Shown here in pieces: positions 6,638 to 30,563 of a stretch of 32,000 nucleotides of DNA. Each line of letters opens with the position of its first letter. Within the stretch, counting starts at the first letter, position 1. The stretch lies in assembly GCA_963843975.1 (NCBI GenBank), contig CAWJMG010000003.1:2010001-2042000 (forward strand), in the 5' to 3' direction. Position numbers and translations under genes: made by a program. Under the pieces are notes generated by a model. The model searched no databases and was not told the origin of the DNA. It saw nothing but the letters and a program-made list of their open reading frames with translations. This DNA is from an uncultured Actinomycetes bacterium. GTDB taxonomy: Bacteria > Actinomycetota > Actinomycetes > S36-B12 > CAIYMF01.

Positions 6638-7795
6638 CTAGCGGATGTTGGTGCGCGGCGTCTCGTGGGCGCGGTGGACGAGGTCCTCGTTGCCCTCGCC
6701 GGCCGGGCCGAGGTCCTGCTCGGGGGCCTGCGGGCCGCGGATGACCTCGTCGGTGTGCACGAAGACGGGCTTGGCCTCCGGGAAGTGGCAGGCAATGGCG
6801 TGCCCCGGCGCCACCTCGCGGAACGCCGGCACCTCGACCTTGCACTGCTCCTGCGCCTTGTAGCAGCGGGTGTGGAACACACAGCCGGACGGCGGGTTGA
6901 TCGGGCTGGGCAGGTCGCCGGTCAGCAGGATCCGCTCGCGACGCGTCTGGTTGTCCGGGTCGGGGATGGGCACGGCCGACAGCAGCGCGTGGGTGTACGG
7001 GTGCAGCGGCTTGGAGTAGAGGACGTCGCGGTCCGCGAGCTCCATGATCTTGCCGAGGTACATGACCGCCACGCGGTCGGCGATGTGCCGCACGACGGAG
7101 AGGTCGTGGGCCACGAAGATGTAGGCGATGCCGAACTCGCTCTGCAGGTCCTCGAGCAGGTTGACGACCTGGGCCTGGATCGAGACGTCGAGCGCGGACA
7201 CGGGCTCGTCGGCCACGATGAGCTTGGGGCGCAGCGCGATCGCGCGGGCCACGCCGATGCGCTGGCGCTGACCGCCGGAGAACTCGTGCGGGTAGCGGTT
7301 GTAGTGCTCGGGGTTGAGACCGACGCGCTCGAGGAGCTCCTGCACCTTGGGCTTGATGTCCCTGTCGGCCAGCGTGCCCTGCACCCGGAACGGGGCGCCG
7401 ACGATCGTGCCGATCGTGTGCCGCGGGTTCAGCGAGGAGTACGGGTCCTGGAAGATCATCTGGACTTCGCTGCGCATCGGGCGCATCTGGGACACCGAGT
7501 AGTTCGTGATGTCCTTGCCGTTGAAGATGATCTGGCCGGACGTCGGCTCGAGCAGCTTGGTGATCGTGCGCCCGGCGGTCGACTTGCCGCAGCCGGACTC
7601 GCCCACGACGCCGAGCGTCTCGCGCTCGCCGACGTCGAACGAGATGCCGTCGACGGCCTGCACCGCGCCCACCTGGCGCTGGAACACGATGCCCTGTGTG
7701 ATGGGGAAGTGCTTCTTGAGGTCCCTGACCTGGAGCAGGGCGTCGTCGCGCAGCGCGATGGGCGCGTACGACTCGGTGCTCGGGGCGACGGTCAC
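6638..7795 (-). CDS. oligopeptide/dipeptide ABC transporter ATP-binding protein (OppF/DppF type) with a ~47-aa C-terminal tail
   Basis: Walker A GESGCGKST, signature FSGGQRQRIGVARA, Walker B LIVADEPVSALD, and a C-terminal Opp-type region with 4 Cys. GTG start with GAAGGAGA upstream. Confidence 0.95.
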   Translation of the reverse strand: MTVAPSTESYAPIALRDDALLQVRDLKKHFPITQGIVFQRQVGAVQAVDGISFDVGERETLGVVGESGCGKSTAGRTITKLLEPTSGQIIFNGKDITNYSVSQMRPMRSEVQMIFQDPYSSLNPRHTIGTIVGAPFRVQGTLADRDIKPKVQELLERVGLNPEHYNRYPHEFSGGQRQRIGVARAIALRPKLIVADEPVSALDVSIQAQVVNLLEDLQSEFGIAYIFVAHDLSVVRHIADRVAVMYLGKIMELADRDVLYSKPLHPYTHALLSAVPIPDPDNQTRRERILLTGDLPSPINPPSGCVFHTRCYKAQEQCKVEVPAFREVAPGHAIACHFPEAKPVFVHTDEVIRGPQAPEQDLGPAGEGNEDLVHRAHETPRTNIR

Positions 7796-20448: not shown

Positions 20449-20608
20449 CGTCGCACTGCCACGCACCCGTCGCGGCCGGGTGACGAGGCACGGATTCACC
20501 CGGCGGCCAGGGGAACACCGGAGCTAGTGTGTGCGGACCGACATCGGGGGGACACCGACGGCGGTTGGACGGGGTGCGGCGACTGCCGCGAGCGAGGGGG
20601 AGCACACC

Positions 20609-21103
20609 GTGGACGCCGCGTTCTGGGTCCTGGCCATCGGAGGCCTGGCAGCCCTGCTGCTGGGCACGCTGTTCGACGGCGTCCTCGACCTCGGCAACCT
20701 CCTCCCCGACGCCGACTGGTTCTCCGTCCCGGCAATCGGCGGCTTCTGCGCCGTCCTCGGCTTCACGGGGATCCTCGCCACCTCGCTCGGCGTGCCCACC
20801 GCCGCGGCGCTGGGCATCGGGCTCGTCGCGGGGGCGCTCGCGTTCTACGCCGTGCTGCGCCTCACCCGCCTGCTCCGCCGGGACGACACCGAGGGCGCGA
20901 CGTCGCGCGAGCAGCTCGTCGGCCTCACCGCCACGGTCGTGTCCGACGTCCCGGCCGACGGGTACGGCGAGGTCTCCGTGGTGCTGGCGGGCACCAGCTC
21001 GAAGTTCAGCGCCCGGTCGGAGGGGACGCCGATCCCGCGCGGCACGGACGTGCTCGTCCTCGAGGCGCTGTCGGACAGCGCGGTCCTCATCCGGGTGGTC
21101 TGA
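20609..21103 (+). CDS. NfeD-family membrane protein (flotillin-associated, C-terminal OB-fold)
   Basis: Three hydrophobic spans are followed by GLTATVVSDVPADGYGEVSVVLAGTSSKFSARSEGTPIPRGTDVLVLEALSDSAVLIRV, the NfeD C-terminal pattern. I chose GTG at 20609 (GAGGGGGA 8 nt upstream). It lies directly upstream of a flotillin gene, as is usual. Confidence 0.8.
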   Translation: MDAAFWVLAIGGLAALLLGTLFDGVLDLGNLLPDADWFSVPAIGGFCAVLGFTGILATSLGVPTAAALGIGLVAGALAFYAVLRLTRLLRRDDTEGATSREQLVGLTATVVSDVPADGYGEVSVVLAGTSSKFSARSEGTPIPRGTDVLVLEALSDSAVLIRVV

Positions 21104-21196
21104 GCACACGCACGGCACGGCCACCGCGGCGCACGCCTCGGTGGGCACGACGGGGGTCCGCCGGACGGCGGCCACGCTCCACGAAGGGGAAGCACG

Positions 21197-22729
21197 ATGC
21201 TGGATCTGTTCAACTCGACCGTGTTCTGGTCGGTCCTCGGGCTGATCGTCACGGTCATCGCGCTCGTGGCCTTCGTGCTGTCGCGCTACAAGGTCGCCGG
21301 CCCGAGCCAGGCCCTCATCGTGACGGGCCGCAAGGGCAAGACCAGCTCGGACCTCACCTCGCAGCGGGTCGTGATCGGCGGCGGACTGTTCGTCATCCCG
21401 GTCGTGCAGCAGGCCTCGATCCTCGACCTGTCGAGCCGACGCATCGAGGTCACCGTCACCGACGCGCCTGCCAAGAACGGCATCAAGCTCTCGATCCAGG
21501 GCGTCGCCATCGTCAAGGTCGGCTCGACCGACGAGGCCATCCGAGCGGCTGCTCAGCGCTTCACCGCCCAGCAGGGCGAGATCGCCGCGCAGACGACCGA
21601 GGTGCTCTCGGGTGCGCTGCGGTCGATCGTCGGCAACCTCACGGTCGAGGACATCATCAAGGACCGCATGCTCTTCGCCTCGCAGGTAGCCGAGCTCACC
21701 GAGCAGGCCCTCACCGGCCAGGGCCTGGTGCTCGACACGTTCCAGATCCAGGACGTCACCGACAACGGCACCTACCTCACCGACCTTGGTCGCCCCGAGG
21801 CCGCGCGCGTGCAGCAGAACGCGGCGATCGCCGAGGCGCAGGCGCGCCAGGCGGCCGAGCAGGCGCGCCTCGCCACCGAGCAGCAGATCCTGAACTCCAC
21901 GCGCGAGTTCTCGCTGCAGCAGGCCGCGGTCAAGGCCGAGACCGACGCCGCCCAGGCGAACGCCGCTGCGGCCGGGCCCCTCGCCGAGGCCGACAAGCGC
22001 CAGCAGATCCTCAACGCGCAGGAGAAGGTCGCGGTGCAGCAGGCCGCGCTCACCGACCGCACGCTCGACACCGAGGTCCGCAAGCCCGCCGACGCCGCGC
22101 GCTACCGCGCCGAGCAGGAGGCCGAGGCCGAGCGGATCACCGCGATGAAGCGCGCGGAGGCGGCGAAGTTCAGCACCATCGCGCAGGCCGAGGCGAAGGC
22201 CGAGCAGGACCGACTCACCGGTGAGGGTGAGAAGCTGCGTCGTACCGCGCTCGCGGAGGCCGAGGCCATCGAGGGTGAGCGCCGCGGTGCGGCCGAGCGG
22301 GCCCAGCGCGAGGCGGTCGCCAAGGCCGTCCAGGCCGAGGGTGACGCCCAGGCGTCCGCGACGCTCGCGGTCGGCACGTCCGAGGCCGAGGCGATGACCA
22401 AGAAGGCCGACGCCTACGCCAAGTACAACCAGGCCGCCGTCCTCGAGATGGTCGTGGCCGCGCTGCCGCAGATCGCCAAGGAGATCGCGGCGCCGATGGC
22501 CGCGATCGACAACCTCACGGTGCTCTCGACCGAGGGTGCGGGCCACCTCAGCCGGCAGGTGACGAACACCTTCGCCCAGGTGCAGGAGATGCTGAAGGCG
22601 ACGACCGGCGTCGACCTCGCCGCGCTCCTCCCCCAGGCCACGACCGCGCCGGAGCCGACGCCGGCTCCGGCGGCGAAGGCTGCAGCCCCGGCGAAGGCCG
22701 CGGTCGAGAAGGGCTCAACGGGCTCCTGA
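21197..22729 (+). CDS. flotillin-like SPFH/band-7 domain protein
   Basis: 510 aa. N-terminal hairpin anchor VFWSVLGLIVTVIALVAFVL, an SPFH core (YKVAGPSQALIVTGRKG...IKLSIQGVAIVKV), then a long Ala/Glu/Gln-rich coiled-coil typical of flotillins. Confidence 0.92.
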   Translation: MLDLFNSTVFWSVLGLIVTVIALVAFVLSRYKVAGPSQALIVTGRKGKTSSDLTSQRVVIGGGLFVIPVVQQASILDLSSRRIEVTVTDAPAKNGIKLSIQGVAIVKVGSTDEAIRAAAQRFTAQQGEIAAQTTEVLSGALRSIVGNLTVEDIIKDRMLFASQVAELTEQALTGQGLVLDTFQIQDVTDNGTYLTDLGRPEAARVQQNAAIAEAQARQAAEQARLATEQQILNSTREFSLQQAAVKAETDAAQANAAAAGPLAEADKRQQILNAQEKVAVQQAALTDRTLDTEVRKPADAARYRAEQEAEAERITAMKRAEAAKFSTIAQAEAKAEQDRLTGEGEKLRRTALAEAEAIEGERRGAAERAQREAVAKAVQAEGDAQASATLAVGTSEAEAMTKKADAYAKYNQAAVLEMVVAALPQIAKEIAAPMAAIDNLTVLSTEGAGHLSRQVTNTFAQVQEMLKATTGVDLAALLPQATTAPEPTPAPAAKAAAPAKAAVEKGSTGS

Positions 22730-22736
22730 CGACCAC

Positions 22737-22784
22737 GCATGCGGGAGGGCGCCGAGCACCATTGATCGGCGCCCTCCCGCATGC
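22737..22784. terminator. bidirectional terminator-like hairpin between convergent genes (19-bp perfect stem, 10-nt loop)
   Basis: GCATGCGGGAGGGCGCCGA (22737-22755) pairs with TCGGCGCCCTCCCGCATGC (22766-22784). It lies between the flotillin stop (22729) and the ATPase stop (22791). Confidence 0.65.
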
Positions 22785-22790
22785 CCGGGA

Positions 22791-25097
22791 TCAGCGCGCG
22801 GCCTCGGGGATCAGGCTGAACGCACCCTCGTCCTCCTGCGCGTTGTGCAGCCGAAGGACGCCGTACAGGCCGTAGAGCGCACGCCTCAGCTCGACGACGT
22901 CGTCGGCCGTGACCGTGCCCTCGCCGATCTCCGACACGATGCGGTCGAGGCGGCTCACCTGGTGCTCGATCTCGGCGTGGGTGCGGCTGAGGCCGCCGGT
23001 GGGATCGAGCCCGCCGAGCGCCCGCGCGACGACGGGGAGCAGGAGCAGCTCCTCCTCCTGCTCGTGCGGCACGAGCTCTTGCTGGAGGCGGCGCACGAGG
23101 TCGCGCACCGCGCGGATGTCCTCGTCGTCGTCCGAGAGCGCGTCGGCGACGGCCGAGACGTCCTCGACCAGCGCGTGCAGCGCCTGGTGGTCGACGCGAA
23201 GCCTGGCCGCCACGGCCACGTCCTCAGCGCTCATCGAGACGGTGTGCACGGCCGTGGGCAGCAGGCCGGTCAGGGCGATGCCGATCGCGAGGACGTCGAT
23301 ACCCTCCTGCAGCAGAGCACCGCCTGTCGGCGCGAGCACGCCGAACGCTGCAGCCACCATCGCCACCGCCGACAGCGACATGCCGACCACGGCCGCGCGG
23401 TAGGCGATGCGGCGGGACCGCTGCGCGATCAGGATCGCGTCGGCGAGCGCGTCGATGCGGTCGACGGTGAGGACGACATCGGCTGCCTCGGACGACGCCG
23501 ACGACCCGCGTGAGGCGAGCGCCACGCCCACGCCTGCCGCTGCGAGCGCGGGGGCGTCGTTGACGCCGTCTCCGACCATGATCGTGGAGCCGTGGCGGCC
23601 CTCGTCGGCCACCACACGCACCTTCGAGCCCGGGTCCTGCTCGGCGTAGACGGTGTCGACACCGACGAGCCGGCCGACCGTGTCGGCGATGTCCGACCGG
23701 TCGCCGCTCACGAGCACGACCCGGGCGATGCCGACCGAGCGCAGCGCGCGGACCATGCGCGGGGCGTCGGGCCGGATCGGGTCCTCGAGCACCAGGGCAC
23801 CTGCCGGCACGCCGTCCGCGGAGACGAAGACCGTGAGCGAGCCGTCGAGCGACGCACGACGGCGTACCTGCCGCACCCACGTCGGGGCGGGCCCGTCGAC
23901 GACCCACGTCTCCTTGCCCACGCGCACGGCGACGTCGTCGACGACGCCCTCGATGCCGTAGCCCGCGACCTCGTGCACGTCGCTGGGCTCGCTCAGCACC
24001 CCGCCGCGCGAGCGCGCGGAGGACACGACGGCGCCGGCGAGGACGTGCGGCGAGTACTGGTCGAGCGACGCCGCCAGCGAGACGACCCGCTCGACCGGCA
24101 GCGCGTCGCCGCAGACGACGTCGACCACGGTCGGCCGGCCGCGTGTGAGCGTGCCCGTCTTGTCGAACAGGAGCACGGTGCCGTTGGCCAGCTGCTCGAG
24201 AGCGGAGCCGCCCTTGACCACGACCCCGGCCCGCGCAGCGCGCGACAGCCCTGCCATGAGCGCGATCGGCGTCGCGAGGATCAGCGGGCAGGGGGTCGCG
24301 ACGACCAGAACAGCGACGCCGCGGACGGCGTCGCCCGAGACCCACCACGCGGCACCCGCGACGACCAGCGCGATCGGCACGAAGTACGCCGCGAGCCGGT
24401 CGGCGAGGCGGACGAAGGGGGCTGTGTCCGCTGCGGCCTGCTCGACCATCCGCACGAGACCGGCGTACGTCGAGGTCGCAGAGGTCGCCGTCGCGACGAG
24501 CTCGACGGGCGACCCAGCGTTGACGACGCCGCTGCGCACGCCCTCGTCGACCGCACGTTCGACAGGGAGGGACTCACCCGACAGCGCGGACTCGTCGAAG
24601 ACGCCCGCCGTAACCAGCCTGCCGTCGACCGGGGCGAGCTCGCCCGGGCCCACGATCACGCGGTCGCCGATCACGACGTCGGCGACGTCGATCGTGAGCA
24701 CCTCGGCACCGCGCTTCACCCGCGCCGTGCGCGGGGCGCGGTCGACGAGGAGCGTCAGCTCGCGCGAGGCACGCGCCTGAGCGCTCGCCTCGAGGAGCTG
24801 CCCGGTCGCCAGCATCAGGGCGACGACGGCGGCCGCGAGGTACTCGCCCACGACGACCGCGCCGGCGAGCGCGAGCAGCGCGATGACGTCGACGCTCAGC
24901 TGGCGGTGCCGGACGGCGCGGACGGTCGCCACCAGCGAGAGCACGAAGCCCTGCGCGGTGGCGAGCAGGAAGAGGATGTCGGCCGGGGTCTCGCGGCCGA
25001 CGAGCAGGAGGACCACGCCCGCTGCGAGGAGCAGCGCGCAGACGGCCAGCTGGAGCTGTTCACGCCGGGGCCCGGCGGTCCGCGTCGTGTGGCTCAT
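22791..25097 (-). CDS. P1B-type heavy-metal-translocating ATPase, P1B-5-like, with a C-terminal hemerythrin-like (HHE) domain and no N-terminal metal-binding domain
   Basis: DKTGTLT phosphorylation site, GDGVNDAPALAAA hinge, TGES-equivalent SGESLP, TM4 motif TPCP. The C-terminal ~150 aa carry hemerythrin ligand spacing (VPHEQEEE = HxxxE, THAEIEH, LHNAQED = HxxxxD). I chose ATG at 25097 (GAGGTGG 6 nt upstream); the track start is GTG 25106. Confidence 0.92.
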   Translation of the reverse strand: MSHTTRTAGPRREQLQLAVCALLLAAGVVLLLVGRETPADILFLLATAQGFVLSLVATVRAVRHRQLSVDVIALLALAGAVVVGEYLAAAVVALMLATGQLLEASAQARASRELTLLVDRAPRTARVKRGAEVLTIDVADVVIGDRVIVGPGELAPVDGRLVTAGVFDESALSGESLPVERAVDEGVRSGVVNAGSPVELVATATSATSTYAGLVRMVEQAAADTAPFVRLADRLAAYFVPIALVVAGAAWWVSGDAVRGVAVLVVATPCPLILATPIALMAGLSRAARAGVVVKGGSALEQLANGTVLLFDKTGTLTRGRPTVVDVVCGDALPVERVVSLAASLDQYSPHVLAGAVVSSARSRGGVLSEPSDVHEVAGYGIEGVVDDVAVRVGKETWVVDGPAPTWVRQVRRRASLDGSLTVFVSADGVPAGALVLEDPIRPDAPRMVRALRSVGIARVVLVSGDRSDIADTVGRLVGVDTVYAEQDPGSKVRVVADEGRHGSTIMVGDGVNDAPALAAAGVGVALASRGSSASSEAADVVLTVDRIDALADAILIAQRSRRIAYRAAVVGMSLSAVAMVAAAFGVLAPTGGALLQEGIDVLAIGIALTGLLPTAVHTVSMSAEDVAVAARLRVDHQALHALVEDVSAVADALSDDDEDIRAVRDLVRRLQQELVPHEQEEELLLLPVVARALGGLDPTGGLSRTHAEIEHQVSRLDRIVSEIGEGTVTADDVVELRRALYGLYGVLRLHNAQEDEGAFSLIPEAAR

Positions 25098-25159
25098 GGC
25101 CACCACCTCGATCCGAGGACGCGCGAGCGACGCAGCAGCGCCCGTCTCCCTCCACCCTA

Positions 25160-25173
25160 GGCCGGTACCGGCC
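25160..25173. promoter_or_regulatory. perfect 14-nt palindrome GGCCGGTACCGGCC about 60 nt upstream of the ATPase start; candidate operator
   Basis: Read directly from the sequence, in the 165-nt gap between the phnA stop and the ATPase start. No regulator gene is adjacent, so its function is a guess. Confidence 0.25.
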
Positions 25174-25220
25174 GGGTGGCCCGCGAAGCCGGCATTCCCC
25201 CGGTCACGTGGCAGCGCGTG

Positions 25221-25246
25221 CCCTGGTCGCTCCGGGGAGCGACCAG
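25221..25246 (-). terminator. hairpin 17 nt downstream of phnA (10-12 bp stem)
   Basis: CCTGGTCGCTCC / GGAGCGACCAGG are perfect arms around a GG centre. Confidence 0.5.
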
Positions 25247-25262
25247 GCGTGCTCCGTGCCGG

Positions 25263-25616
25263 TCAGGCCTTCTTCACCACGCTGGACTTGAGCTGCATCT
25301 GGCCGAACCCGTCGACCCGGGCGTCGATGTCGTGGTCGCCGACGCCGTCGACGAGCCGGATGCCGCGCACCTTGGTGCCGACCTTGATCGTGCCTCCGCC
25401 GGCGCCCTTGACCTTGAGGTCCTTCACGACGACCACGTCATCGCCGTCCGAGAGCACGTTGCCGACCGCGTCGCGGATGACACGTGCGTCTCCGGTCGCC
25501 TCGCCGTCCGCCGAGGGGGACCACTCGTGGGCGCACTCGGGGCACACGAGGAGGGCGCCCATCTCGTAGGTGTGGACGCTGGAGCACTCGGGGCACGGGG
25601 GCAGCTGGTCGGGCAT
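25263..25616 (-). CDS. phnA: PhnA/YjdM family zinc-ribbon protein
   Basis: 117 aa. N-terminal zinc ribbon PPCPECSSVHTYEMGALLVCPECAHEW, then the conserved C-terminal domain DSNGN-like VIRDAVGNVLSDGDDVVVVKDLKVKG...IDARVDGFGQMQLKSSVVKKA. I chose ATG at 25616. Confidence 0.9.
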   Translation of the reverse strand: MPDQLPPCPECSSVHTYEMGALLVCPECAHEWSPSADGEATGDARVIRDAVGNVLSDGDDVVVVKDLKVKGAGGGTIKVGTKVRGIRLVDGVGDHDIDARVDGFGQMQLKSSVVKKA

Positions 25617-25877
25617 GCGCCCATCCAACCGCCTCGATGCCCGCGCACGGCGGCCGAGTGCCACGCGAGCAGGTCAGGGGACCCTCACCCTGCGTCCACG
25701 CGGGGGCCGGCGTCACCCGTACGGCGGTGCACACGGCGTACGCCGCAGCACGAAGACCTGGGAGAACGCGCCTCCTGAGCACGGATCGGGACCGGCTGAG
25801 CTTTCACCCCAATGGCGTATGAAAGTCGGCGATCCGCGGGCCGATACACGGTTGGGTTTCTCTGTCAGGAGGCCGAC

Positions 25878-27893
25878 ATGGCCAGCACGTCGCGGGTGAA
25901 GACCACCGGCACCGTCGGTGGCACCACCGCAGCTCGGCTCATGCGTGGCCGGGCCGGACACCGTTCCGGCCTCGCTCTCGGCGCCGTCGTCGCAGCAGGT
26001 GCGATGGCGTTCGCTCTCGGCGCTCCCGCCACCAGTGCGGTTGCCGCCACCAGCGCCCCGACCCTGCTCAGCGTGCAGGGTTCGGCGCTGTCCCCCGATG
26101 CCGCAGCGGCCTGGGTCACCTCACACGGTGGCGAGGTCCTCGCGGTCTACGACGTCGCCGACGCGCTGCTCGTGTCCCTGCCCGCGGGTCTCACCCCGCC
26201 TGCCGGGACCGTCTCCGTGCCCGACGTCGCGATGCACCTCACCGCCGCCCCCAGCGCCGCTGCTGCGACCGACGTGAAGGGTGCGACGTACCGCGCCTCG
26301 ATCGGCGCATCGAGCACGGCGACCGGTGCCGGCGTGACCGTCGCCGTCGTCGACACCGGCGTCACCGACGTCGCAGACCTCGCCGGCCGTGTCACCCACG
26401 TCAACGTCAGCGGTGGTCCCGCCGGCGACGGACTGGGCCACGGCACCTTCATGGCCGGTCTCGTCGCTGGTGACGGATCGTCCTCGGACGGCACCTACAC
26501 CGGTGTCGCCCCCGACGCCCGCATCCTCGACGTCCAGGTCGCGACGCCCGACGGCTCGACCTCGCTCTCCCGCGTCCTCGCGGGTCTGCAGGCCGTTCTC
26601 GACGCCAGCACGTCCGACCCCTCCGTCCGCGTCGTGAGCCTCGCGCTCTCGACCGGCAACCCGCTGCCCCCGTCGGCCGACCCGCTCTCGCGCGGCCTCG
26701 ACCGCCTCTGGGCCAAGGGCCTCACCGTCGTCGTCTCGGCCGGTAACGACGGCCCCGCCGACGGAACCGTCACCTCCCCCGGCGCCGACCCCACCCTCAT
26801 CACGGTGGGCGCTCTCGACGAGCACGGCACCTCGGCACGCGGTGACGACACCGTGGCCGCCTTCTCCGCCCGCGGCACCGAGTTCGGGGCCAGCAAGCCC
26901 GACCTCGTCGCTCCCGGCGTCTCGCTCGTGTCCACCCGCTCCGCGGGCAGCACGGCCGACGTCGAGAACCCCGCGTCGCGCGTCGGCGACGGCTACTTCA
27001 CCGGCAGCGGCACGTCGATGAGCGAGGCCGTCACGGCCGGCGCGGCGGCAGTGCTCATCGGGACGCGCTCCGCCCTCACCCCCGACACGGTGAAGAAGCT
27101 GCTCACGAAGACCGCGTACGACCAGAAGAACCTGAGGAAGGCCGACGGCGCCGGTGACGGCGGCCTCGACCTCGCTGCTGCAGTCGCTGCCGCGCCCACG
27201 GCCAAGATCGTCAAGGTCAAGGGCTCGATCGCGAAGCTGGCCGACGACGCGTACGGCCCCGACCCGGCCGACGCCGCCGCCTGGCAGCAGTTCTCCGCCG
27301 CCTGGGCGGCCGGGGACCTCGACGCCGTCGCAGCGATCTGGGTGACGCTCTCCGAGCAGACCCGCCGCTGGGCAGCCACCGCGTTCGCCCTGTCCCTGGT
27401 GTCGAGCAACGCCGGCGCCGGAGACGAGGAGTTCGCCGCCATCGAGGCGCTCGCGCACCGCTGGTCCACCGAGTCGTGGAAGTCCCGCGACTGGGCGACC
27501 GACGCGTTCGTGGCGCACCGCTGGTCCGACGCCGACTGGGCAGCGCACCGCTGGTCGCTGGCCGACTGGGCGGCGCACCGCTGGTCCGACGCCGACTGGA
27601 GCGCGCACCGCTGGTCCCTCGAGGCCTGGGATGCGCACCGCTGGTCGACCGACGCCTGGGACGCGCACCGCTGGTCGTCCGAGGACTGGCTGGCCTTCGC
27701 CTGGGTCGCCCACCGCTGGAGCTCCGACACGTGGGCTGCCGACGCGTGGGACGAGCAGGCATGGTCGGCGCACCGCTGGTCGGCGCACCGCTGGAGCGAC
27801 TACGCATGGGAGGCGCACCGCTGGTCCGCCCACCGCTGGTCCGTGGACGACTGGTCCGCGCACCGCTGGTCAGTGGACGCGTGGAGCGTCTGA
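25878..27893 (+). CDS. secreted subtilisin-like serine peptidase (S8 family) with a Trp-rich repeat tail
   Basis: Asp VAVVDTGV, His GHGTFMAGLVAG, oxyanion Asn SAGNDG, Ser GSGTSMSEAVTAGAAA. Signal-like GLALGAVVAAGAMAFALGAPATSAVAA. I chose ATG at 25878 because AGGAGG lies 6 nt upstream; the track start is 25812. Confidence 0.9.
   Translation: MASTSRVKTTGTVGGTTAARLMRGRAGHRSGLALGAVVAAGAMAFALGAPATSAVAATSAPTLLSVQGSALSPDAAAAWVTSHGGEVLAVYDVADALLVSLPAGLTPPAGTVSVPDVAMHLTAAPSAAAATDVKGATYRASIGASSTATGAGVTVAVVDTGVTDVADLAGRVTHVNVSGGPAGDGLGHGTFMAGLVAGDGSSSDGTYTGVAPDARILDVQVATPDGSTSLSRVLAGLQAVLDASTSDPSVRVVSLALSTGNPLPPSADPLSRGLDRLWAKGLTVVVSAGNDGPADGTVTSPGADPTLITVGALDEHGTSARGDDTVAAFSARGTEFGASKPDLVAPGVSLVSTRSAGSTADVENPASRVGDGYFTGSGTSMSEAVTAGAAAVLIGTRSALTPDTVKKLLTKTAYDQKNLRKADGAGDGGLDLAAAVAAAPTAKIVKVKGSIAKLADDAYGPDPADAAAWQQFSAAWAAGDLDAVAAIWVTLSEQTRRWAATAFALSLVSSNAGAGDEEFAAIEALAHRWSTESWKSRDWATDAFVAHRWSDADWAAHRWSLADWAAHRWSDADWSAHRWSLEAWDAHRWSTDAWDAHRWSSEDWLAFAWVAHRWSSDTWAADAWDEQAWSAHRWSAHRWSDYAWEAHRWSAHRWSVDDWSAHRWSVDAWSV
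27453..27890 (+). repeat. in-frame tandem repeat encoding 29 consecutive pentads with Trp (28) or Phe (1) at position 1; 13 copies of AHRWS; basic DNA unit 30 nt
   Basis: CACCGCTGG (His-Arg-Trp) occurs at 27456, 27516, 27546, 27576, 27606, 27636, 27666, 27711, 27771, 27786, 27816, 27831 and 27861. All spacings are multiples of 15 nt. The protein reads ...AHRWSDADWAAHRWSLADWAAHRWSDADWSAHRWSLEAWDAHRWSTDAWDAHRWS... Confidence 0.95.
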
Positions 27894-27894
27894 C

Positions 27895-30162
27895 ATGTCC
27901 GACACGACCGCCCTCGGCCGCAGGCTCACCGTGCCTGCGGTCGTGGGCGGCGTGTGCCTCCTCGGCGCCCTGAGCCTCGCGCTCGCGGCCGCCGTCATCC
28001 CGTCCCTCGCCGAGCCCGGTGGCTCGGCGGACGTGCACCTCCCCCTCGCGATCCTCGCCTTCGTCGTCGCAGCCGCGGTCTCCGAGATCGTCTCGGTGCC
28101 GCTCATGCACGGCGCCGACAAGGAGGACCTGACGTTCTTCGAGATCGTCACGGTCGCCGGCATCCTCGTGCTCGACCCGAGCTGGGCCGTCGTCGCGCCG
28201 CTGGTGGGCCTCGCGATCGTGCAGATCGTGCTGCGCATTCCGGCGAAGAAGATCGCCTTCAACCTCGGCTCGTACGCTGCGGCGACCGTCGCGGCCGTCA
28301 TCAGCTACCTCGCCATCAACGCCGGCGCCGAGCGGTTCTCGCTGCAGGGCGTCATCGCCCTCGTCGTGGCGATGTCGCTCTTCACCGTCGTCAACACGCT
28401 CCTCCTCGCCGCCGTCCTTCACGCGGCCGAGGGCATCAGCGTCCGCGCGTTCGTCGCGGACGTGTGGGGCCTGTCGCTGCTCATGACGATCGGCTCGATC
28501 GGCGTGGGCGCCGTCGCCGTCGCCATCGCCCCCGTGTCGGTGTGGCTGCTCCCCTTCACGCTGCTGCCGGCCATGGCCCTCTGGTACGCCTACCGCTCGA
28601 CCTCGCAGCGGGCGGAGGAGCGCGAGCGCAACCGCTGGCTCGTCACGCTCTCCGGCACGCTCACCGCCGAGCACCCCATGCCCGAGCTGCTCGCCGACGC
28701 CTCGACCGCCATCCGGTCCGCGTTCGGCGCCGGCTCCGTCCTCGTCGTCCTCCCGGCCGACGACGACCTCACCACCATGTTCCCGGCCTCCGAGGGCGTC
28801 GTCCCCGTCCCGACAACGCGCCTGCCCGAGGGCTGGGGCTCGGCCGTCTCGATCGGCCTCGAGCTCGGCGAGGGTCGCCGCGGCACGCTGCTGCTCGGCG
28901 ACGCCGCCGACGTCCGTCGCCCCTGGGCCATCAAGCAGACCGACGAGGCCGTGCTCACGACCGTCGCCGCGTCCCTCGGCAGCGCGATCCGTAGCGCAGA
29001 GCGCCACGCGGCTCTGGTCGAGGAGTCGAGCAAGCTCAAGGCCGTCGTCGAGAACGCCACCGACGGCATCGCCGTGCTCACCGGCACCGGCCGCGTGCGC
29101 CTGTGGAGCCCGGCGATGTCGCGCATCACCGGCATCCCCGAGGCGACCGCCACCTTCACCGTCCCCGGCGCGGACGTGCCCTCGGCGCTCTCCGCCATCG
29201 TCGCCAGCGCGATCGTCGGCGGCGTCGTCGCGGGCCAGGGCCCGGTCGAGGTCGAGCCGCGCTCGCTCACGATCACCCGGCCCGACGGCGAGACGCGCGA
29301 CGTGACCGTCGCCGTCGTCCGCGCCCGCACCAACGCCGACGGCGAGCCCGTCGCGATCCTGACCCTGCACGACGTCACGTCGCAGGCCCGAGCCGACCGG
29401 CTCAAGAGCGACTTCGTCGCGACGATCTCGCACGAGCTGCGGACGCCGATCACGCCCATCAAGGGCTACGCGCAGCTGCTGCTCGCGCGGGGCGACGCCA
29501 TGACGCCGGAGAAGCGCCGGTCGGCGTACGAGCTCATCGCCGACCGCGCCGACCACCTCGGCCGCCTGGTCGAGGACCTGCTCATGGCCTCGCGCGCGTC
29601 CGGCACCCTCGGCTCCAAGCTCGCGACCACCCCGCAGGGGCACGACCTGCGCACGATCGTCTCGGCCGCGGTCGAGTCCTTCCCGGCGCTCGCGGGACGC
29701 CTCGAGCTCGAGCAGCCCGAGACCGCCGTTCCCGTGTGGTGCGACTCGGTCCGCTCGGTGCAGATCCTGTCCAACCTCCTGTCGAACGCGATCAAGTACT
29801 CCCCCGAGGGCACACCGATAGCGGTGCGCGTCCCCGAGTCGGAGTTCGGCGACACCCACGCCGTCATCACCGTCACCGACAGCGGCTGCGGCCTCGCCGC
29901 CGGCGACACCGAGCGCGTGTTCGAGCGGTTCTACCGCGTCGAGGACTCGATGACGATGCGCACGAGCGGCAGCGGCCTCGGCCTCTACATCGCCCGCGAG
30001 CTCGCCATCGCCATGGGCGGCAGCCTCACCGTCGCCTCGCAGCCCGGCCAGGGCTCGACCTTCACCGTCCGCCTGCCCCGCACCGAAGCGGCCGCAGCGG
30101 CAGCAACACCGGCACCTGCACCAGCGCCCGCGCAGTCCGTCCCGTTCGCCCGCACCGCCTAG
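27895..30162 (+). CDS. sensor histidine kinase: about 8 TM helices, GAF-like region, PAS, HisKA, HATPase_c
   Basis: The ATG is 1 nt after the S8 stop (TGAcATG). H-box ATISHELRTPITPIKGY, N-box LLSNAIKYSPEG, G1 VTDSGCGL, G2 GSGLGLYIAREL, PAS-like LKAVVENATDGIAVLTGTGRVRLWSPAMSRITG. The track ORF start at 27631 is an alternate-frame reading of the repeat. Confidence 0.92.
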   Translation: MSDTTALGRRLTVPAVVGGVCLLGALSLALAAAVIPSLAEPGGSADVHLPLAILAFVVAAAVSEIVSVPLMHGADKEDLTFFEIVTVAGILVLDPSWAVVAPLVGLAIVQIVLRIPAKKIAFNLGSYAAATVAAVISYLAINAGAERFSLQGVIALVVAMSLFTVVNTLLLAAVLHAAEGISVRAFVADVWGLSLLMTIGSIGVGAVAVAIAPVSVWLLPFTLLPAMALWYAYRSTSQRAEERERNRWLVTLSGTLTAEHPMPELLADASTAIRSAFGAGSVLVVLPADDDLTTMFPASEGVVPVPTTRLPEGWGSAVSIGLELGEGRRGTLLLGDAADVRRPWAIKQTDEAVLTTVAASLGSAIRSAERHAALVEESSKLKAVVENATDGIAVLTGTGRVRLWSPAMSRITGIPEATATFTVPGADVPSALSAIVASAIVGGVVAGQGPVEVEPRSLTITRPDGETRDVTVAVVRARTNADGEPVAILTLHDVTSQARADRLKSDFVATISHELRTPITPIKGYAQLLLARGDAMTPEKRRSAYELIADRADHLGRLVEDLLMASRASGTLGSKLATTPQGHDLRTIVSAAVESFPALAGRLELEQPETAVPVWCDSVRSVQILSNLLSNAIKYSPEGTPIAVRVPESEFGDTHAVITVTDSGCGLAAGDTERVFERFYRVEDSMTMRTSGSGLGLYIARELAIAMGGSLTVASQPGQGSTFTVRLPRTEAAAAAATPAPAPAPAQSVPFARTA

Positions 30163-30170
30163 GAGTCATC

Positions 30171-30563
30171 ATGAGCAGGATCCTGATCGTCGACGACGAG
30201 TTCTCCGTCCGCGCCCTGCTGCGTGACGTCCTCGAGCTCGAGGACTACGAGGTCGTCGAGGCCGAGGACGGCCCGGCAGCCCTGGCGGCCATGGCGGAGC
30301 AGCGACCCGACCTGGTGCTGCTCGACATCATGATGCCGGGCATGAGCGGCATCGACGTGCTCGCGCAGGTGCGCGCCGACGTGCGCCTGCACGACGTCCC
30401 CGTCGTCCTGCTCACCGCAGCGGGCGACGACGACACCACGTGGGCCGGCTGGACGACGGGCGCGAGCCTGTACCTCAACAAGCCGTTCGACCACATGAAC
30501 CTGCTCGAGTGGATCGAGCGCCTGCTCGCCGAGAACAGCCCGGCACTGCAGAGCGCCTCGTAA
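30171..30563 (+). CDS. single-domain response regulator (receiver only, CheY-like)
   Basis: 130 aa. ILIVDDE acidic pocket, phospho-acceptor LVLLDIMMPGMSG, T in VVLLTAAG, K in YLNKPF, and no output domain. AGGAG lies 5 nt upstream; the gap to the kinase stop is 8 nt. Confidence 0.9.
   Translation: MSRILIVDDEFSVRALLRDVLELEDYEVVEAEDGPAALAAMAEQRPDLVLLDIMMPGMSGIDVLAQVRADVRLHDVPVVLLTAAGDDDTTWAGWTTGASLYLNKPFDHMNLLEWIERLLAENSPALQSAS

What the first reader, a model, noticed from the sequence alone, without database searches (positions are those of the whole stretch)
27453..27890. The S8 peptidase ends in an unbroken Trp-every-fifth-residue array (13 x AHRWS) that I cannot assign to a known module
Seen directly:
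- From the TGG at 27462 to the last TGG at 27882 there are 29 consecutive 15-nt steps. 28 encode Trp and one encodes Phe (27507).
- His-Arg-Trp (CACCGCTGG) recurs 13 times, always at multiples of 15 nt. This gives a 10-aa unit AHRWS-x-x-x-W-x (for example AHRWSDADWA) that runs to the stop codon.
- There is no LPXTG, SLH, LysM, GW, LGFP or choline-binding signature.

Structural guesses only:
- The period equals that of pentapeptide-repeat beta-helices (A[D/N]LXX); pentads such as ADWAA and DAWDA fit, with Trp in the Leu/Phe slot.
- The alternating Arg and Trp recall the cation-pi Trp-Arg ladders of WSXWS and thrombospondin type-1 motifs.

A C-terminal aromatic array on a secreted protease suggests a new envelope- or polymer-binding module. 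The near-identical 30-nt DNA units also predict strain-to-strain copy-number variation by slippage.
Basis: partly seen in the sequence, partly recalled or inferred. Interest (0 to 1): 0.7.

Follow-up and report, generated by a model that had tools for sequence, protein, structure and literature searches.

The report
Tryptophan-every-fifth-residue tail on a kinase-linked protease
A secreted subtilisin-type protease ends in a 146-residue tail with tryptophan at every fifth position. The tail matches no described domain, is conserved across many Actinomycetota, and is inherited together with a membrane-embedded sensor kinase, which suggests an undescribed protease-plus-kinase signalling cassette.

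Summary
The S8 peptidase gene (25878-27893, + strand) ends in 29 in-register pentads, 28 with Trp and 1 with Phe, including 13 AHRWS. The reading frame is right: GC3 is 0.95 and synonymous changes outnumber non-synonymous ones against orthologues.

The tail is not a local oddity. 119 of the 120 best homologues carry the same kind of tail. The Trp register is conserved. Pentads are uniform within a protein but differ between lineages (AHRWS, ARRWS, ARSWA, ARAWS, GRRWA, GSNWS). Spacer pentads are conserved position by position, and indels come in multiples of five residues.

Pfam, NCBIfam and PDB sequence searches find nothing in the tail. AlphaFold gives no confident fold (pLDDT 26-60 in context, 34 alone).

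Tail-bearing S8 genes are followed by one orthologous histidine kinase with an eight-helix intramembrane (MASE9-type) sensor: 25 of 30 tail-bearing genes against 1 of 34 without a tail (p = 8e-12). A stand-alone receiver is often linked too.

Best reading: a new repeat module that holds the protease at the cell envelope as the external arm of a three-gene signalling cassette. This is inferred, not shown. The pentapeptide beta-helix, WSXWS-ladder and slippage ideas are not supported.

The parts
25878..27893 (+). S8 (subtilase) pre-pro-peptidase gene with the Trp-pentad tail. 25878 is the probable start; the longest ORF starts at 25812.
   Evidence: ORF list. Pfam PF00082 E=2e-38. Orthologues start at MASTSRV. 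The identical protein is on record on a 2.76 Mb contig.
25935..26048 (+). Signal-peptide-like N-terminus: a basic n-region followed by the hydrophobic stretch GLALGAVVAAGAMAFALGAPATSAVAA.
   Evidence: Read directly from the translation. Similar hydrophobic N-termini are seen in orthologues. No signal-peptide predictor was available, so export is inferred.
26061..26219 (+). I9-like N-terminal propeptide.
   Evidence: The AlphaFold model has a beta-alpha-beta-beta unit at aa 84-136 with pLDDT 82-94. Foldseek best matches are unprocessed pro-subtilisins: ProN-Tk-SP 3afg and pro-Tk-subtilisin. The family relative P0135 has a weak Inhibitor_I9 hit.
26325..27155 (+). Subtilase catalytic domain.
   Evidence: Pfam Peptidase_S8 covers aa 172-448. 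H210, N312 and S402 are invariant and D181 is >=90% conserved in 76 family members. pLDDT is >90.
27249..27452 (+). Conserved helical pre-tail domain with irregularly spaced Trp and Phe (W491, F494, W498, W510, W520; motif ...LSxQTRRWAAxAF...).
   Evidence: Invariant or near-invariant columns in alignment A1. AlphaFold helices 485-552 have pLDDT 55-82. The domain is also present in Actinoplanes and Pseudosporangium homologues.
27453..27890 (+). Trp-pentad array. 29 pentads (28 W, 1 F): 13 basic pentads AHRWS interleaved with mostly acidic spacer pentads (x-D/E-D/A-W-x).
   Evidence: Family-wide conservation. No family or structure match.
27684..27704 (+). DWLAFAW landmark inside the array, invariant across lineages. 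It marks the boundary between two sub-arrays, and some lineages carry a non-repeat insertion after it.
   Evidence: Invariant columns D98 W99 L100 F102 A103 W104 in tail alignment A3. Insertions after it are seen in the GRRWA lineages.
27895..30162 (+). Histidine kinase, 755 aa. It starts 1 nt after the S8 stop (TGAcATG), which suggests co-translation.
   Evidence: Pfam finds PAS (381-494), HisKA (504-568) and HATPase_c (617-730). It is homologous over nearly full length to the kinase downstream of tail-bearing S8 genes in 25 of 30 species-representative loci.
27922..28584 (+). Kinase membrane sensor domain: about 8 hydrophobic segments with loops of <=9 residues and no extracytoplasmic domain (MASE9-type).
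   Evidence: Hydropathy scan. The orthologue in L004 hits Pfam MASE9 at E=2.4e-9, while the window copy itself does not reach threshold. Conserved intramembrane E, R/K, N and P residues across lineages.
30171..30563 (+). Stand-alone receiver (single-domain response regulator, 130 aa).
   Evidence: Pfam Response_reg E=6e-30 and no output domain. Linked to tail-bearing S8 genes in 14 of 30 loci against 2 of 34.

Best explanation
The tail is a real, conserved and so far undescribed protein module. It is an ordered array of Trp-centred pentads, [A/G/S]-[R/H]-x-W-[S/A] alternating with acidic x-[D/E]-x-W-x, at the C-terminus of an exported, catalytically intact pro-subtilase.

I propose that it acts as a multivalent aromatic binding surface. 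It would hold the protease on the outside of the cell envelope, at or near the membrane surface, next to the kinase encoded immediately downstream. That kinase has no external domain. On this reading the protease with its tail is the extracytoplasmic arm of a three-gene cassette (S8-tail, intramembrane-sensing kinase, stand-alone receiver).

Shown:
- the array and its reading frame;
- family-wide conservation of the register;
- concerted evolution of the pentads;
- positional conservation of the spacer pentads;
- absence of any known domain or confident predicted fold;
- co-inheritance with the kinase and, less consistently, the receiver.

Inferred:
- export of the protein;
- binding to the envelope or membrane;
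- functional coupling to the kinase.
For: 1. Family-wide module. 119 of the 120 best homologues end in 14-38 in-register aromatic pentads. The one exception is a single indel in a long-read assembly, and the intact Trp frame is still present in its DNA.
2. Selection acts on the protein. Against a 90%-identical orthologue there are 25 synonymous and 14 non-synonymous changes, all of the latter in spacer pentads. Ala and Ser codons flanking the core differ between units.
3. Defined architecture. Tails from lineages with different pentads align position by position (TDAFV, IDDW, QVDWLAFAW, D[FL]xW). Indels are multiples of 5 residues.
4. Concerted evolution. The basic pentad is about 100% uniform within a protein, against 45% when pentads are shuffled between proteins, yet it differs between lineages. 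The His-to-Arg switch occurs at all 8 basic pentads that could be aligned codon by codon against the ARRWS orthologue (first 105 codons), using different Arg codons, CGC, CGT and CGG. This fits units that contact one another or a periodic ligand.
5. Composition. The tail is 18-19% Trp, has essentially no Pro, and has balanced charge. The 28 Trp alone contribute -52 kcal/mol on the Wimley-White interfacial scale.
6. Gene linkage in independent species-representative genomes. Tail with kinase 25, tail without kinase 5, no tail with kinase 1, neither 33; Fisher p=8e-12. The receiver is linked in 14/30 against 2/34.
7. The linkage survives change of context. Flanking genes are unrelated and gene order changes: S8-HK-REC here, REC-S8-HK in Actinoplanes, Pseudosporangium and Krasilnikovia.
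8. The kinase lacks an external sensor. It has about 8 TM segments with loops <=9 aa and is MASE9-type. MASE9 is described as probably binding its ligand within the membrane (bioRxiv 10.1101/2021.11.05.467447). By established knowledge, kinases of this kind commonly depend on accessory proteins for input.
9. Translational coupling. The S8 stop and the kinase start are 1 nt apart.
Against: - There is no direct evidence of binding to anything.
- The hydrophobic moment peaks only at 72 and 144 degrees (z about 9-10) and is at background at 100 degrees. The tail therefore cannot lie on a membrane as a classical amphipathic helix.
- Total Wimley-White interfacial energy of the unfolded tail is about zero, because the acidic residues cancel the Trp.
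- AlphaFold gives no usable model, so no binding surface can be inspected.
- Five of 30 tail-bearing S8 genes have no kinase immediately downstream.
- Operon linkage could simply mean that the two-component system regulates or responds to the protease, without any physical contact.
- A periodic wall polymer explains the uniform pentads at least as well as a membrane or kinase partner.
Confidence: 0.42

Rival explanations
1. This is a structural claim that is compatible with several functions. The tail folds into a beta-solenoid with one pentad per side, a divergent relative or analogue of the pentapeptide-repeat quadrilateral beta-helix. Trp would form internal or external ladders, and that would explain the concerted evolution of the pentads.
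For: - The period is strictly 5, and indels come only in multiples of 5.
- Pentads are uniform within a protein, as in the residue ladders of solenoids.
- Small residues flank Trp (positions -3 and +1) throughout the wider class.
- Periodicity appears only at 72 and 144 degrees, which no simple secondary structure explains.
- If Trp is placed at the i-2 core position and the small residue at i, the variable polar positions fall where pentapeptide-repeat proteins are variable. This is my own inference.
Against: - No Pentapeptide HMM hit, even at E<=10.
- With Trp at the usual central position, i-2 is Arg or His.
- AlphaFold predicts short helices at pLDDT 26-60 in context and 34 alone, although canonical pentapeptide-repeat proteins are normally modelled confidently.
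- The window's subfamily is rich in Ala and Arg and poor in Gly and Asn, which favours helix.
- Krasilnikovia has a 5+7 spacing (ARARAWADADW) that breaks a pure pentad solenoid.
Confidence: 0.2
2. The tail binds a periodic cell-wall polymer (peptidoglycan glycan strands, teichoic- or teichuronic-type polymers, or capsule) through CH-pi stacking on Trp. This is how aromatic stripes work in carbohydrate-binding modules and in the plant ESV1/LESV Trp-rich domain. The kinase linkage would be regulatory only.
For: - Many identical, evenly spaced Trp units with acidic neighbours resemble the repeated aromatic-plus-acidic motifs of ESV1/LESV, which bind glucan helices (bioRxiv 10.1101/2023.06.09.544376).
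- Uniform pentads that change together between lineages fit a lineage-specific periodic ligand.
- The protease has no other anchor.
Against: - No sequence similarity to any carbohydrate- or wall-binding family.
- The ESV1/LESV domain is modelled with pLDDT>90, unlike this tail.
- This reading does not explain why the tail tracks one specific kinase family.
Confidence: 0.2
3. The tail is a multi-copy precursor of signalling peptides. The subtilase cuts its own tail after each Trp (subtilases favour large hydrophobic P1 residues). This would release Trp-terminated pentapeptides that the adjacent polytopic kinase senses, making a self-contained autoinducer circuit.
For: - The protease and a polytopic, loop-poor kinase are encoded side by side, as in agr- or ComP-type peptide sensing (my own knowledge).
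- The units are identical within a protein and lineage-specific between proteins.
- One MAG (BP_569) carries two S8-tail/kinase pairs with different pentads: GSNWS in L019 and GASWR in L030.
Against: - Spacer pentads and the DWLAFAW landmark are conserved position by position, which a mere peptide quarry would not need.
- No cleavage evidence exists.
- No dedicated exporter or modification gene is conserved nearby.
- The partner regulator has no DNA-binding output.
Confidence: 0.12
4. The tail is a self-association (sticker) domain that clusters the protease. NANOG's tryptophan-repeat domain works this way: it has Trp at every fifth residue and drives dimerisation and prion-like assembly.
For: - The Trp spacing is the same as in the NANOG WR domain, which mediates self-association (PMC9106587).
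- The exhaustive search with the tail retrieved a homeodomain protein among its hits.
- AlphaFold finds no fold, as expected for an assembly-prone low-complexity region.
Against: - Position-specific conservation of the spacers argues for a defined architecture.
- The tail is extracellular and charge-balanced, unlike the polar, uncharged WR domain.
- This reading gives no explanation for the kinase linkage.
Confidence: 0.08
5. The tail is a functionless low-complexity tract produced by replication slippage, or a mis-assembly or wrong-frame artefact.
For: The region is a tandem repeat at the DNA level. One database homologue (P0042) shows the region in another frame.
Against: - GC3 is 0.95 in the Trp frame.
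- Synonymous changes exceed non-synonymous ones.
- The same sequence is found in independent assemblies.
- The pentad count is constant in all relatives at >=90% identity.
- The register is conserved across many Actinomycetota lineages.
- P0042 is a single indel, and its DNA keeps the intact Trp frame.
Confidence: 0.01

Closest known systems
NANOG tryptophan-repeat (WR) domain (vertebrate homeodomain protein)
   Same: Trp at every fifth residue over tens of residues. A low-complexity tail attached to a folded domain. No stable predicted fold. In NANOG the Trp residues act as stickers (PMC9106587).
   Different: NANOG is eukaryotic and nuclear, its repeat is polar and uncharged (W-x-N/S-Q-T type, from my own knowledge), it is about 8-10 units long, and it is not homologous. 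The tail here is extracytoplasmic, has 29 units, alternates basic and acidic pentads, and has position-specific spacers.
Pentapeptide-repeat proteins (A[D/N]LXX; Pfam Pentapeptide, Pentapeptide_4; right-handed quadrilateral beta-helix)
   Same: A five-residue period over a long tandem array, small residues at fixed positions, and indels in whole pentads.
   Different: No HMM match. The central aromatic is Trp, not Leu or Phe. The i-2 position is Arg or His. AlphaFold predicts no beta-helix.
ESV1 / LESV Trp-rich C-terminal domain (plant starch-granule proteins)
   Same: A C-terminal domain made of repeated Trp/aromatic plus acidic motifs, proposed to bind a periodic polymer through aromatic stripes.
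   Different: In ESV1/LESV the motifs sit in 16 antiparallel strands that AlphaFold models at pLDDT>90. There is no strict 5-residue period and no sequence similarity, and the proteins are plant plastid proteins.
Cell-wall-binding repeat tails of secreted Gram-positive enzymes (choline-binding repeats, GW, LysM, SLH, LGFP)
   Same: A C-terminal tandem-repeat tail, rich in aromatics, on a secreted hydrolase that has no covalent anchor. This is the kind of job I propose for this tail.
   Different: None of these families matches. Their units are 20-80 residues with a defined fold, whereas the unit here is 5 residues.
Accessory-protein-dependent intramembrane-sensing histidine kinases ('three-component systems') and protease-linked two-component systems (e.g. 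MprAB-PepD, CssRS-HtrA, nisP-nisRK; from my own knowledge)
   Same: A kinase without an external sensor domain is encoded next to an extracytoplasmic protein. A protease gene is linked to a two-component system.
   Different: Here the protease is a subtilase with a Trp-pentad tail, the kinase sensor is MASE9-type, and the regulator is a bare receiver. None of the named systems has this composition.
Tk-SP / Tk-subtilisin-type pro-subtilases (PDB 3afg, 2z2z)
   Same: The propeptide plus catalytic domain of the window protein superimposes on them (Foldseek E=6e-23; phmmer E=4e-35).
   Different: Tk-SP carries a C-terminal beta-jelly-roll domain, not a Trp repeat.

Membership tests
Peptidase S8 (subtilase) | Match to the family profile above the curated threshold | tested here: met
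   PF00082 132.7 bits against a cut-off of 21.8, covering aa 172-448.
Peptidase S8 (subtilase) | Asp-His-Ser catalytic triad and oxyanion Asn present | tested here: met
   D181 (DTG), H210 (GHGT), N312 and S402 (GTSM) are invariant or >=90% conserved in the 76-sequence family alignment.
Type VII secretion mycosin (TIGR03921) | Score above the equivalog cut-off | tested here: not met
   126.4 bits against a cut-off of 278.75.
Type VII secretion mycosin (TIGR03921) | C-terminal transmembrane anchor and ESX gene neighbourhood | tested here: not met
   The C-terminus is the Trp array, not a hydrophobic helix. The neighbours are a kinase, a receiver, PhnA and a P-type ATPase.
Pentapeptide-repeat proteins (Pfam Pentapeptide families) | Match to a Pentapeptide profile (A[D/N]LXX consensus) | tested here: not met
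   No Pfam family is reported for the tail at E<=10.
Pentapeptide-repeat proteins (Pfam Pentapeptide families) | Small residue at i-2 and Leu/Phe at the central position i | tested here: not met
   With Trp as i, position i-2 is Arg (47%) or His, Asp or Glu. The central residue is Trp in 100% of pentads.
Pentapeptide-repeat proteins (Pfam Pentapeptide families) | Right-handed quadrilateral beta-helix fold | tested here: inconclusive
   AlphaFold gives low-confidence helices (pLDDT 26-60 in context, 33.8 alone). A low-confidence model cannot exclude a fold.
WSXWS / thrombospondin type-1 Trp-Arg ladder | Trp spaced by 2-3 residues (WSXWS, WxxWxxW), interdigitating with Arg from a neighbouring strand | tested here: not met
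   Trp spacing is 5 throughout. Related tails have no Arg or His at all (GSNWS, GNSWS, GTGWS, ATSWG).
Known wall/surface anchors (LPXTG, SLH, LysM, GW, LGFP, choline-binding repeats) | Match to the respective profile or motif | tested here: not met
   No Pfam or NCBIfam hit in aa 497-693 at E<=10. No LPXTG is present in the translation.
NANOG WR-type tryptophan repeat | Trp at every fifth residue in a tandem array | tested here: met
   28 of 29 positions. This is a resemblance of pattern only.
NANOG WR-type tryptophan repeat | Common descent or the same domain context (homeodomain transcription factor) | tested here: not met
   The context here is a bacterial S8 peptidase. Among the 130 Trp-pentad proteins scanned from the 221 hits of the exhaustive search, 65 have an S8 domain and only 1 a homeodomain.
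MASE9-type sensor kinase (neighbouring gene) | Match of the N-terminal membrane region to Pfam MASE9 | tested here: inconclusive
   The orthologue in L004 matches (E=2.4e-9, 37.9 bits against a cut-off of 24.3). The window's copy and the Pseudosporangium copy do not reach E<=10. All align as one family.
New family proposed here: S8 peptidase with C-terminal Trp-pentad array linked to this kinase | C-terminal array of >=6 W-x4-W steps on an S8 peptidase | tested here: met
   26 W-x4-W steps in the window protein.
New family proposed here: S8 peptidase with C-terminal Trp-pentad array linked to this kinase | An orthologous polytopic PAS-HisKA-HATPase kinase adjacent on the same strand | tested here: met
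   Window kinase 27895-30162. 25 of 30 tail-bearing loci against 1 of 34 others.

The most novel reading that the evidence does not exclude
The Trp-pentad tail is itself the signal input of the adjacent kinase, which has no external domain. Two versions are possible. In the first, the tail is a tethered ligand that docks on the MASE9-type membrane domain. In the second, the subtilase cuts its own tail after each Trp and releases lineage-specific pentapeptides that the kinase senses. Either version would be a new, self-contained kind of bacterial signalling circuit in which the protease, the ligand and the receptor are encoded together and the ligand is written as a tandem repeat. It would also give the first input mechanism for a MASE9-type sensor.
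Probability: 0.15. Interest if true: 0.85.

Novelty: new variant of a known kind. Interest (0 to 1): 0.66.

Why it matters
1. It defines a widespread but unannotated repeat module. Hundreds of Actinomycetota subtilases carry it, as do related arrays with other pentads. Current domain libraries, structure databases and AlphaFold all fail on it, so it is a concrete target for structure determination.

2. Its pattern of evolution is unusual. Units are kept identical within a protein, replaced together between lineages, and yet sit in a fixed positional framework. This makes it a clean case for studying selection on repeat uniformity.

3. Its tight co-inheritance with a kinase that has no external sensor offers a testable route to a long-standing question: how intramembrane-sensing (MASE-type) kinases receive their input.

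4. Cultured carriers exist (Actinoplanes, Pseudosporangium, Krasilnikovia, and probably Longivirga), so genetics is feasible.

Tried and rejected
- Word-indexed homologue search with the tail alone found only one fragment. This was a limit of the index, not true rarity. The full-length search and the exhaustive HMMER search found the family.
- Pfam, NCBIfam and PDB sequence searches on the tail gave no usable hit.
- AlphaFold in context with 76 sequences and alone with a register-consistent 20-sequence alignment gave no confident tail model either time. I therefore ran no fold search on the tail. The full-length model was searched only to place the catalytic domain.
- Literature searches for Trp-rich repeats in subtilases and actinobacteria found nothing on this module. 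Searching the motif strings was useless because ARAWA matched ordinary words.
- I tried to find which Trp-pentad proteins hit Pentapeptide_4 by scanning 20 candidates, without success. This is left open.
- A defence-system reading was checked with PADLOC. Only generic subtilase, ATPase and receiver hits appeared, so it is rejected.
- Mycosin is rejected on score and context.
- An alternative reading frame (prompted by P0042) is rejected, because that entry is a single indel.
- An amphipathic alpha-helix lying on the membrane is rejected, because there is no hydrophobic moment at 100 degrees.
- I tried to equate the Actinoplanes receiver with the published AsfR. The residue spacing differs by one and the A. 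missouriensis genome could not be fetched, so this is unresolved.
- The promoter and terminator scan was uninformative in this 71% GC DNA.


Full report
**1. The observation**

The window is 71% G+C. ORF 25812..27893 (+) encodes a 693-aa protein. Orthologues begin at the internal MASTSRV, so ATG 25878 is the likely start.

- From 27453 the frame gives 29 consecutive pentads with an aromatic residue at position 4. 28 are Trp and one is Phe (TDAFV, codon 27507).
- AHRWS occurs 13 times.
- CACCGCTGG occurs 13 times in phase, always a multiple of 15 nt apart, and only once elsewhere in the 32 kb.
- The array ends two residues before the stop codon.

With 1.1% Trp in the rest of the protein, chance is excluded (about 1e-53). 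GC3 is 0.95 in this frame and 0.61 and 0.66 in the others.

Tandem Repeats Finder sees periods of 15, 30, 45, 60 and 90 nt with 78-93% matches for the 30-90-nt periods and 64-70% for the 15-nt period. The units are therefore similar, not near-identical. The Ala codon before the core and the Ser codon after it vary between units.

**2. The protein**

- Pfam finds only Peptidase_S8 (aa 172-448, E=2e-38).
- NCBIfam's best model is mycosin, at 126 bits against a cut-off of 279, so the protein is not a mycosin.
- The AlphaFold model built on a 76-sequence alignment is confident for the propeptide-like unit (aa 84-136) and the catalytic domain (pLDDT >90). It is moderate for a helical pre-tail domain (aa 485-552, pLDDT 55-82). 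It is poor for the tail (pLDDT 26-60, short helices).
- Foldseek places the confident part with unprocessed pro-subtilases: ProN-Tk-SP 3afg at E=6e-23, and pro-Tk-subtilisin. phmmer against PDB sequences agrees.
- The triad residues and the oxyanion Asn are conserved in the family.
- The N-terminus has a basic stretch followed by a long hydrophobic segment. I infer that the protein is an exported pre-pro-subtilase.

**3. The tail has no known match**

- Pfam and NCBIfam report nothing for aa 497-693 even at E<=10.
- PDB sequences give only a chance-level hit at E=0.5.
- A second AlphaFold run on the tail alone, with a register-consistent alignment of 20 tails, gave mean pLDDT 33.8.
- The hydrophobic moment on the Wimley-White interfacial scale peaks only at 72 and 144 degrees per residue (z = 9.2 and 9.9 against shuffles). 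It is at background at 100, 120, 160 and 180 degrees.

The pattern is therefore not that of an amphipathic alpha-helix, a 3-10 or PPII helix, or a beta-strand. It implies either a higher-order repeat with one pentad per structural side or a linear array of short motifs.

**4. It is a family-wide module**

The word-indexed search with the tail alone found one fragment. This was a limit of the index. The full-length search found 584 proteins at E<=1e-20.

Of the best 120, 119 end in 14-38 in-register aromatic pentads. The exception, P0042, is a single indel in a long-read assembly, and its DNA still encodes the intact Trp frame.

- The consensus basic pentad is [A/G/S]-[R/H]-x-W-[S/A/G]. It is interleaved with spacer pentads x-[D/E]-[D/A]-W-x.
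- Tails are about 18% Trp, have a median of zero Pro, and are roughly charge-balanced.
- Against a 90%-identical orthologue (L007) the tail shows 25 synonymous and 14 non-synonymous codon differences. 30 of 44 nucleotide differences are at third positions, and every amino-acid change is in a spacer pentad.
- Tails from lineages with different pentads align position by position. Conserved landmarks are TDAFV with its Phe, IDDW, the invariant DWLAFAW, and D[FL]xW near the end. Indels are multiples of five residues.

**5. Concerted evolution**

Within a protein the basic pentad is almost perfectly uniform. The median majority fraction is 1.0 at positions 1-3 and 0.95 at position 5, against 0.45 at position 3 when pentads are shuffled between proteins. 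Between lineages the pentad differs: AHRWS, ARRWS, AHSWS, ARSWA, ARAWS, GRRWA, GRRWG, ARGWA, GRKWS, GRNWA.

Between the window and an 81%-identical orthologue (L006), His becomes Arg at all 8 basic pentads compared codon by codon (first 105 codons). The Arg codons are CGC five times, CGT twice and CGG once. Together with the variable flanking codons, this argues against one recent DNA-level homogenisation. It argues for selection that keeps the units alike. That would be expected if the units pack on one another in ladders or each contact the same periodic partner.

Copy number is stable at short range. All nine relatives at >=90% identity have 29 pentads, relatives at 81-83% identity have 28, and relatives at 75-76% identity have 30. 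The slippage prediction is not borne out.

**6. A wider class of arrays**

An exhaustive HMMER search of 1.84 billion representative proteins with the tail alone gave 221 hits at E<=1e-3. Nearly all have Trp every fifth residue but with many other pentads: GNSWS, GNTWS, GSRWS, ASSWS, GTGWS, ATSWG, EVKWS, ANVWN, NGTWE and others.

Of 130 scanned, 65 carry Peptidase_S8. One has a homeodomain, consistent with NANOG-type proteins. Five hit Pentapeptide_4, and I could not identify which ones.

Some hits look like translated eukaryotic minisatellites (P0132, P0138, P0149). Others are large bacterial surface-type proteins (P0125 with InlB B-repeats, P0182 with PKD and Big domains).

Across the class, the Trp and its small neighbours are constant. 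The basic residue is not.

**7. Gene linkage**

In the window the S8 stop (TGA 27891-27893) is followed after one nucleotide by the ATG of a 755-aa histidine kinase with PAS, HisKA and HATPase_c domains. A 130-aa stand-alone receiver follows.

The same triad is present at every contig examined for orthologues at 48-91% identity, although the flanking genes are unrelated (L001-L008).

In species-representative genomes, scored blind by script, the counts were:

| | Kinase homologue just downstream | None |
|---|---|---|
| Tail-bearing S8 (>=6 W-x4-W steps) | 25 | 5 |
| S8 without tail | 1 | 33 |

Fisher p = 8e-12.

A full-length homologue of the receiver is linked in 14 of 30 tail-bearing loci against 2 of 34 others (p = 3e-4). 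It lies either after the kinase or directly upstream of the S8 gene. The upstream arrangement is found in Actinoplanes, Pseudosporangium ferrugineum, Krasilnikovia and several MAGs.

All tail-positive loci are Actinomycetota: Nanopelagicales, Frankiaceae, Kineosporiaceae, Acidothermaceae, Micromonosporaceae, Acidimicrobiia and Egibacteraceae.

One MAG (BP_569) has two S8-tail/kinase pairs with different pentads, L019 GSNWS and L030 GASWR.

**8. The kinase**

Its first 230 residues are almost continuously hydrophobic, about eight segments with loops of nine residues or fewer.

The orthologue in L004 matches Pfam MASE9 (E=2.4e-9). The window copy does not reach threshold. All copies align as one family with conserved intramembrane Glu, Arg/Lys, Asn and Pro residues.

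MASE9 was described as a membrane sensor with poorly conserved short periplasmic segments and charged residues in the membrane core, so ligand binding probably occurs within the membrane (bioRxiv 10.1101/2021.11.05.467447).

**9. Interpretation**

Shown:
- a real, selected, positionally ordered Trp-pentad module on an exported-looking, catalytically intact subtilase;
- co-inheritance with one family of kinases that lack an external domain, and often with a bare receiver.

Inferred: the tail is a multivalent aromatic binding surface that keeps the protease at the envelope or membrane surface beside the kinase, so that the protease and tail form the external arm of the cassette.

Points in favour:
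- the protease has no other anchor;
- Trp has a strong preference for the membrane interface (28 Trp contribute about -52 kcal/mol);
- a kinase without an external domain needs an input from somewhere;
- the linkage statistics are strong.

Points against:
- there is no amphipathic-helix signal;
- the net interfacial energy of the unfolded chain is near zero;
- there is no model to inspect;
- a periodic wall polymer explains uniform units at least as well.

I put this mechanism at about 0.4. I put the narrower claim, a real conserved module functionally tied to the kinase, at about 0.9.

**10. Rivals**

- A beta-solenoid fold would explain the period, the whole-pentad indels and the ladder-like uniformity. 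It fails the Pentapeptide profile, has Arg or His where that fold needs a small core residue, and gets no AlphaFold support. It remains possible in a non-canonical register.
- Polymer binding of the ESV1/LESV kind is plausible but does not explain the kinase specificity.
- A peptide-precursor circuit is attractive because of the uniform, lineage-specific units and the polytopic kinase. The positional conservation of the spacers argues against it.
- NANOG-like self-association is a pattern analogy only.
- Artefact or functionless slippage is excluded.

**11. Novelty**

No domain library, solved structure or paper in the searchable library describes this module. The general kinds are known: repeat tails on secreted hydrolases, and accessory proteins for intramembrane-sensing kinases. 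The module and the cassette are new variants of those kinds. If the tail proves to be the kinase's input, the system would be new in kind.

Noticed in passing
L017:4316-4699, L018:4322-4705, L021:4318-4701, L024:4312-4737, L036:4292-4717: In Pseudosporangium, Actinoplanes and Krasilnikovia the stand-alone receiver lies directly upstream of the Trp-tail S8 gene (order REC-S8-HK). A paper on Actinoplanes missouriensis reports that the receiver-only regulator AsfR (AMIS_76070), needed for sporangium dehiscence, sits next to a subtilase gene (AMIS_76080) and is conserved in these same genera (PMC11960193). The residue spacing of my receivers differs by one from the published AsfR numbering, and I could not fetch the A. 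missouriensis locus. Identity is therefore unproven.
   Followed up: partly
L005:9300-10200 (protein P0042): On a 2.03 Mb long-read contig the orthologue's tail is annotated in a shifted frame (RAPLGRR...). The intact Trp frame is present one frame over. This is either a single-indel assembly error or a recent pseudogene.
   Followed up: yes
L036 (Krasilnikovia sp.), C-terminus of the S8 gene ending near 6674: The repeat has become ARARAWADADW, with Trp spacings alternating 7 and 5 (a 12-residue unit). The strict pentad register can therefore be broken in some lineages.
   Followed up: no
L019 and L030 (both from MAG Actinomycetota bacterium BP_569): One genome carries two S8-tail/kinase pairs with different pentads (GSNWS and GASWR). 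This suggests paralogous, possibly insulated, cassettes.
   Followed up: partly
Proteins P0125, P0163, P0182, P0123 from the exhaustive search: Trp-every-fifth arrays also occur outside S8 peptidases:
- P0125 has an N-terminal ANVWN x39 array on a 1226-aa protein with InlB B-repeats.
- P0163 has NGTWE/NGTWK x68.
- P0182 has PDQWA x24 in a 2154-aa protein with PKD and Big domains.
- P0123 has GQVWN x93 in what looks, from its sequence (not checked against a domain library), like a eukaryotic multi-pass membrane (adhesion-GPCR-like) protein.
   Followed up: partly
window 22791-25106 (-): A P-type (E1-E2) ATPase has a C-terminal hemerythrin HHE domain fused to it, which is an unusual combination (Pfam).
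   Followed up: no
window 20528-25673 compared with L007: The window is syntenic with the 91%-identical orthologue's contig: Opp-type transporter, BipA, PALP enzyme, then S8. The window has an extra block between the PALP gene and the S8 gene. It contains two ORFs, the ATPase-hemerythrin gene and a PhnA/YjdM gene.
   Followed up: no
window 25812-25877: The longest ORF adds 22 residues (MAYESRRSAGRYTVGFLCQEAD) upstream of the start used by orthologues. The only terminator-like hairpin in the region (25839-25853) lies inside this extension. The true start is probably 25878.
   Followed up: partly
window 27453-27890: All 14 Arg codons in the tail are CGC, against 13 of 23 in the rest of the gene. 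Orthologue tails are also CGC-biased but less strictly. The cause (codon context before TGG, or partial homogenisation) is not resolved.
   Followed up: partly
window 30171-30560 (receiver), cluster members: The receiver's 90%-identity cluster includes a RefSeq protein from the cultured Longivirga aurantiaca (Sporichthyaceae), whereas the S8 relatives are labelled Candidatus Nanopelagicales. A cultured close relative of the source organism may therefore be available for experiments.
   Followed up: partly
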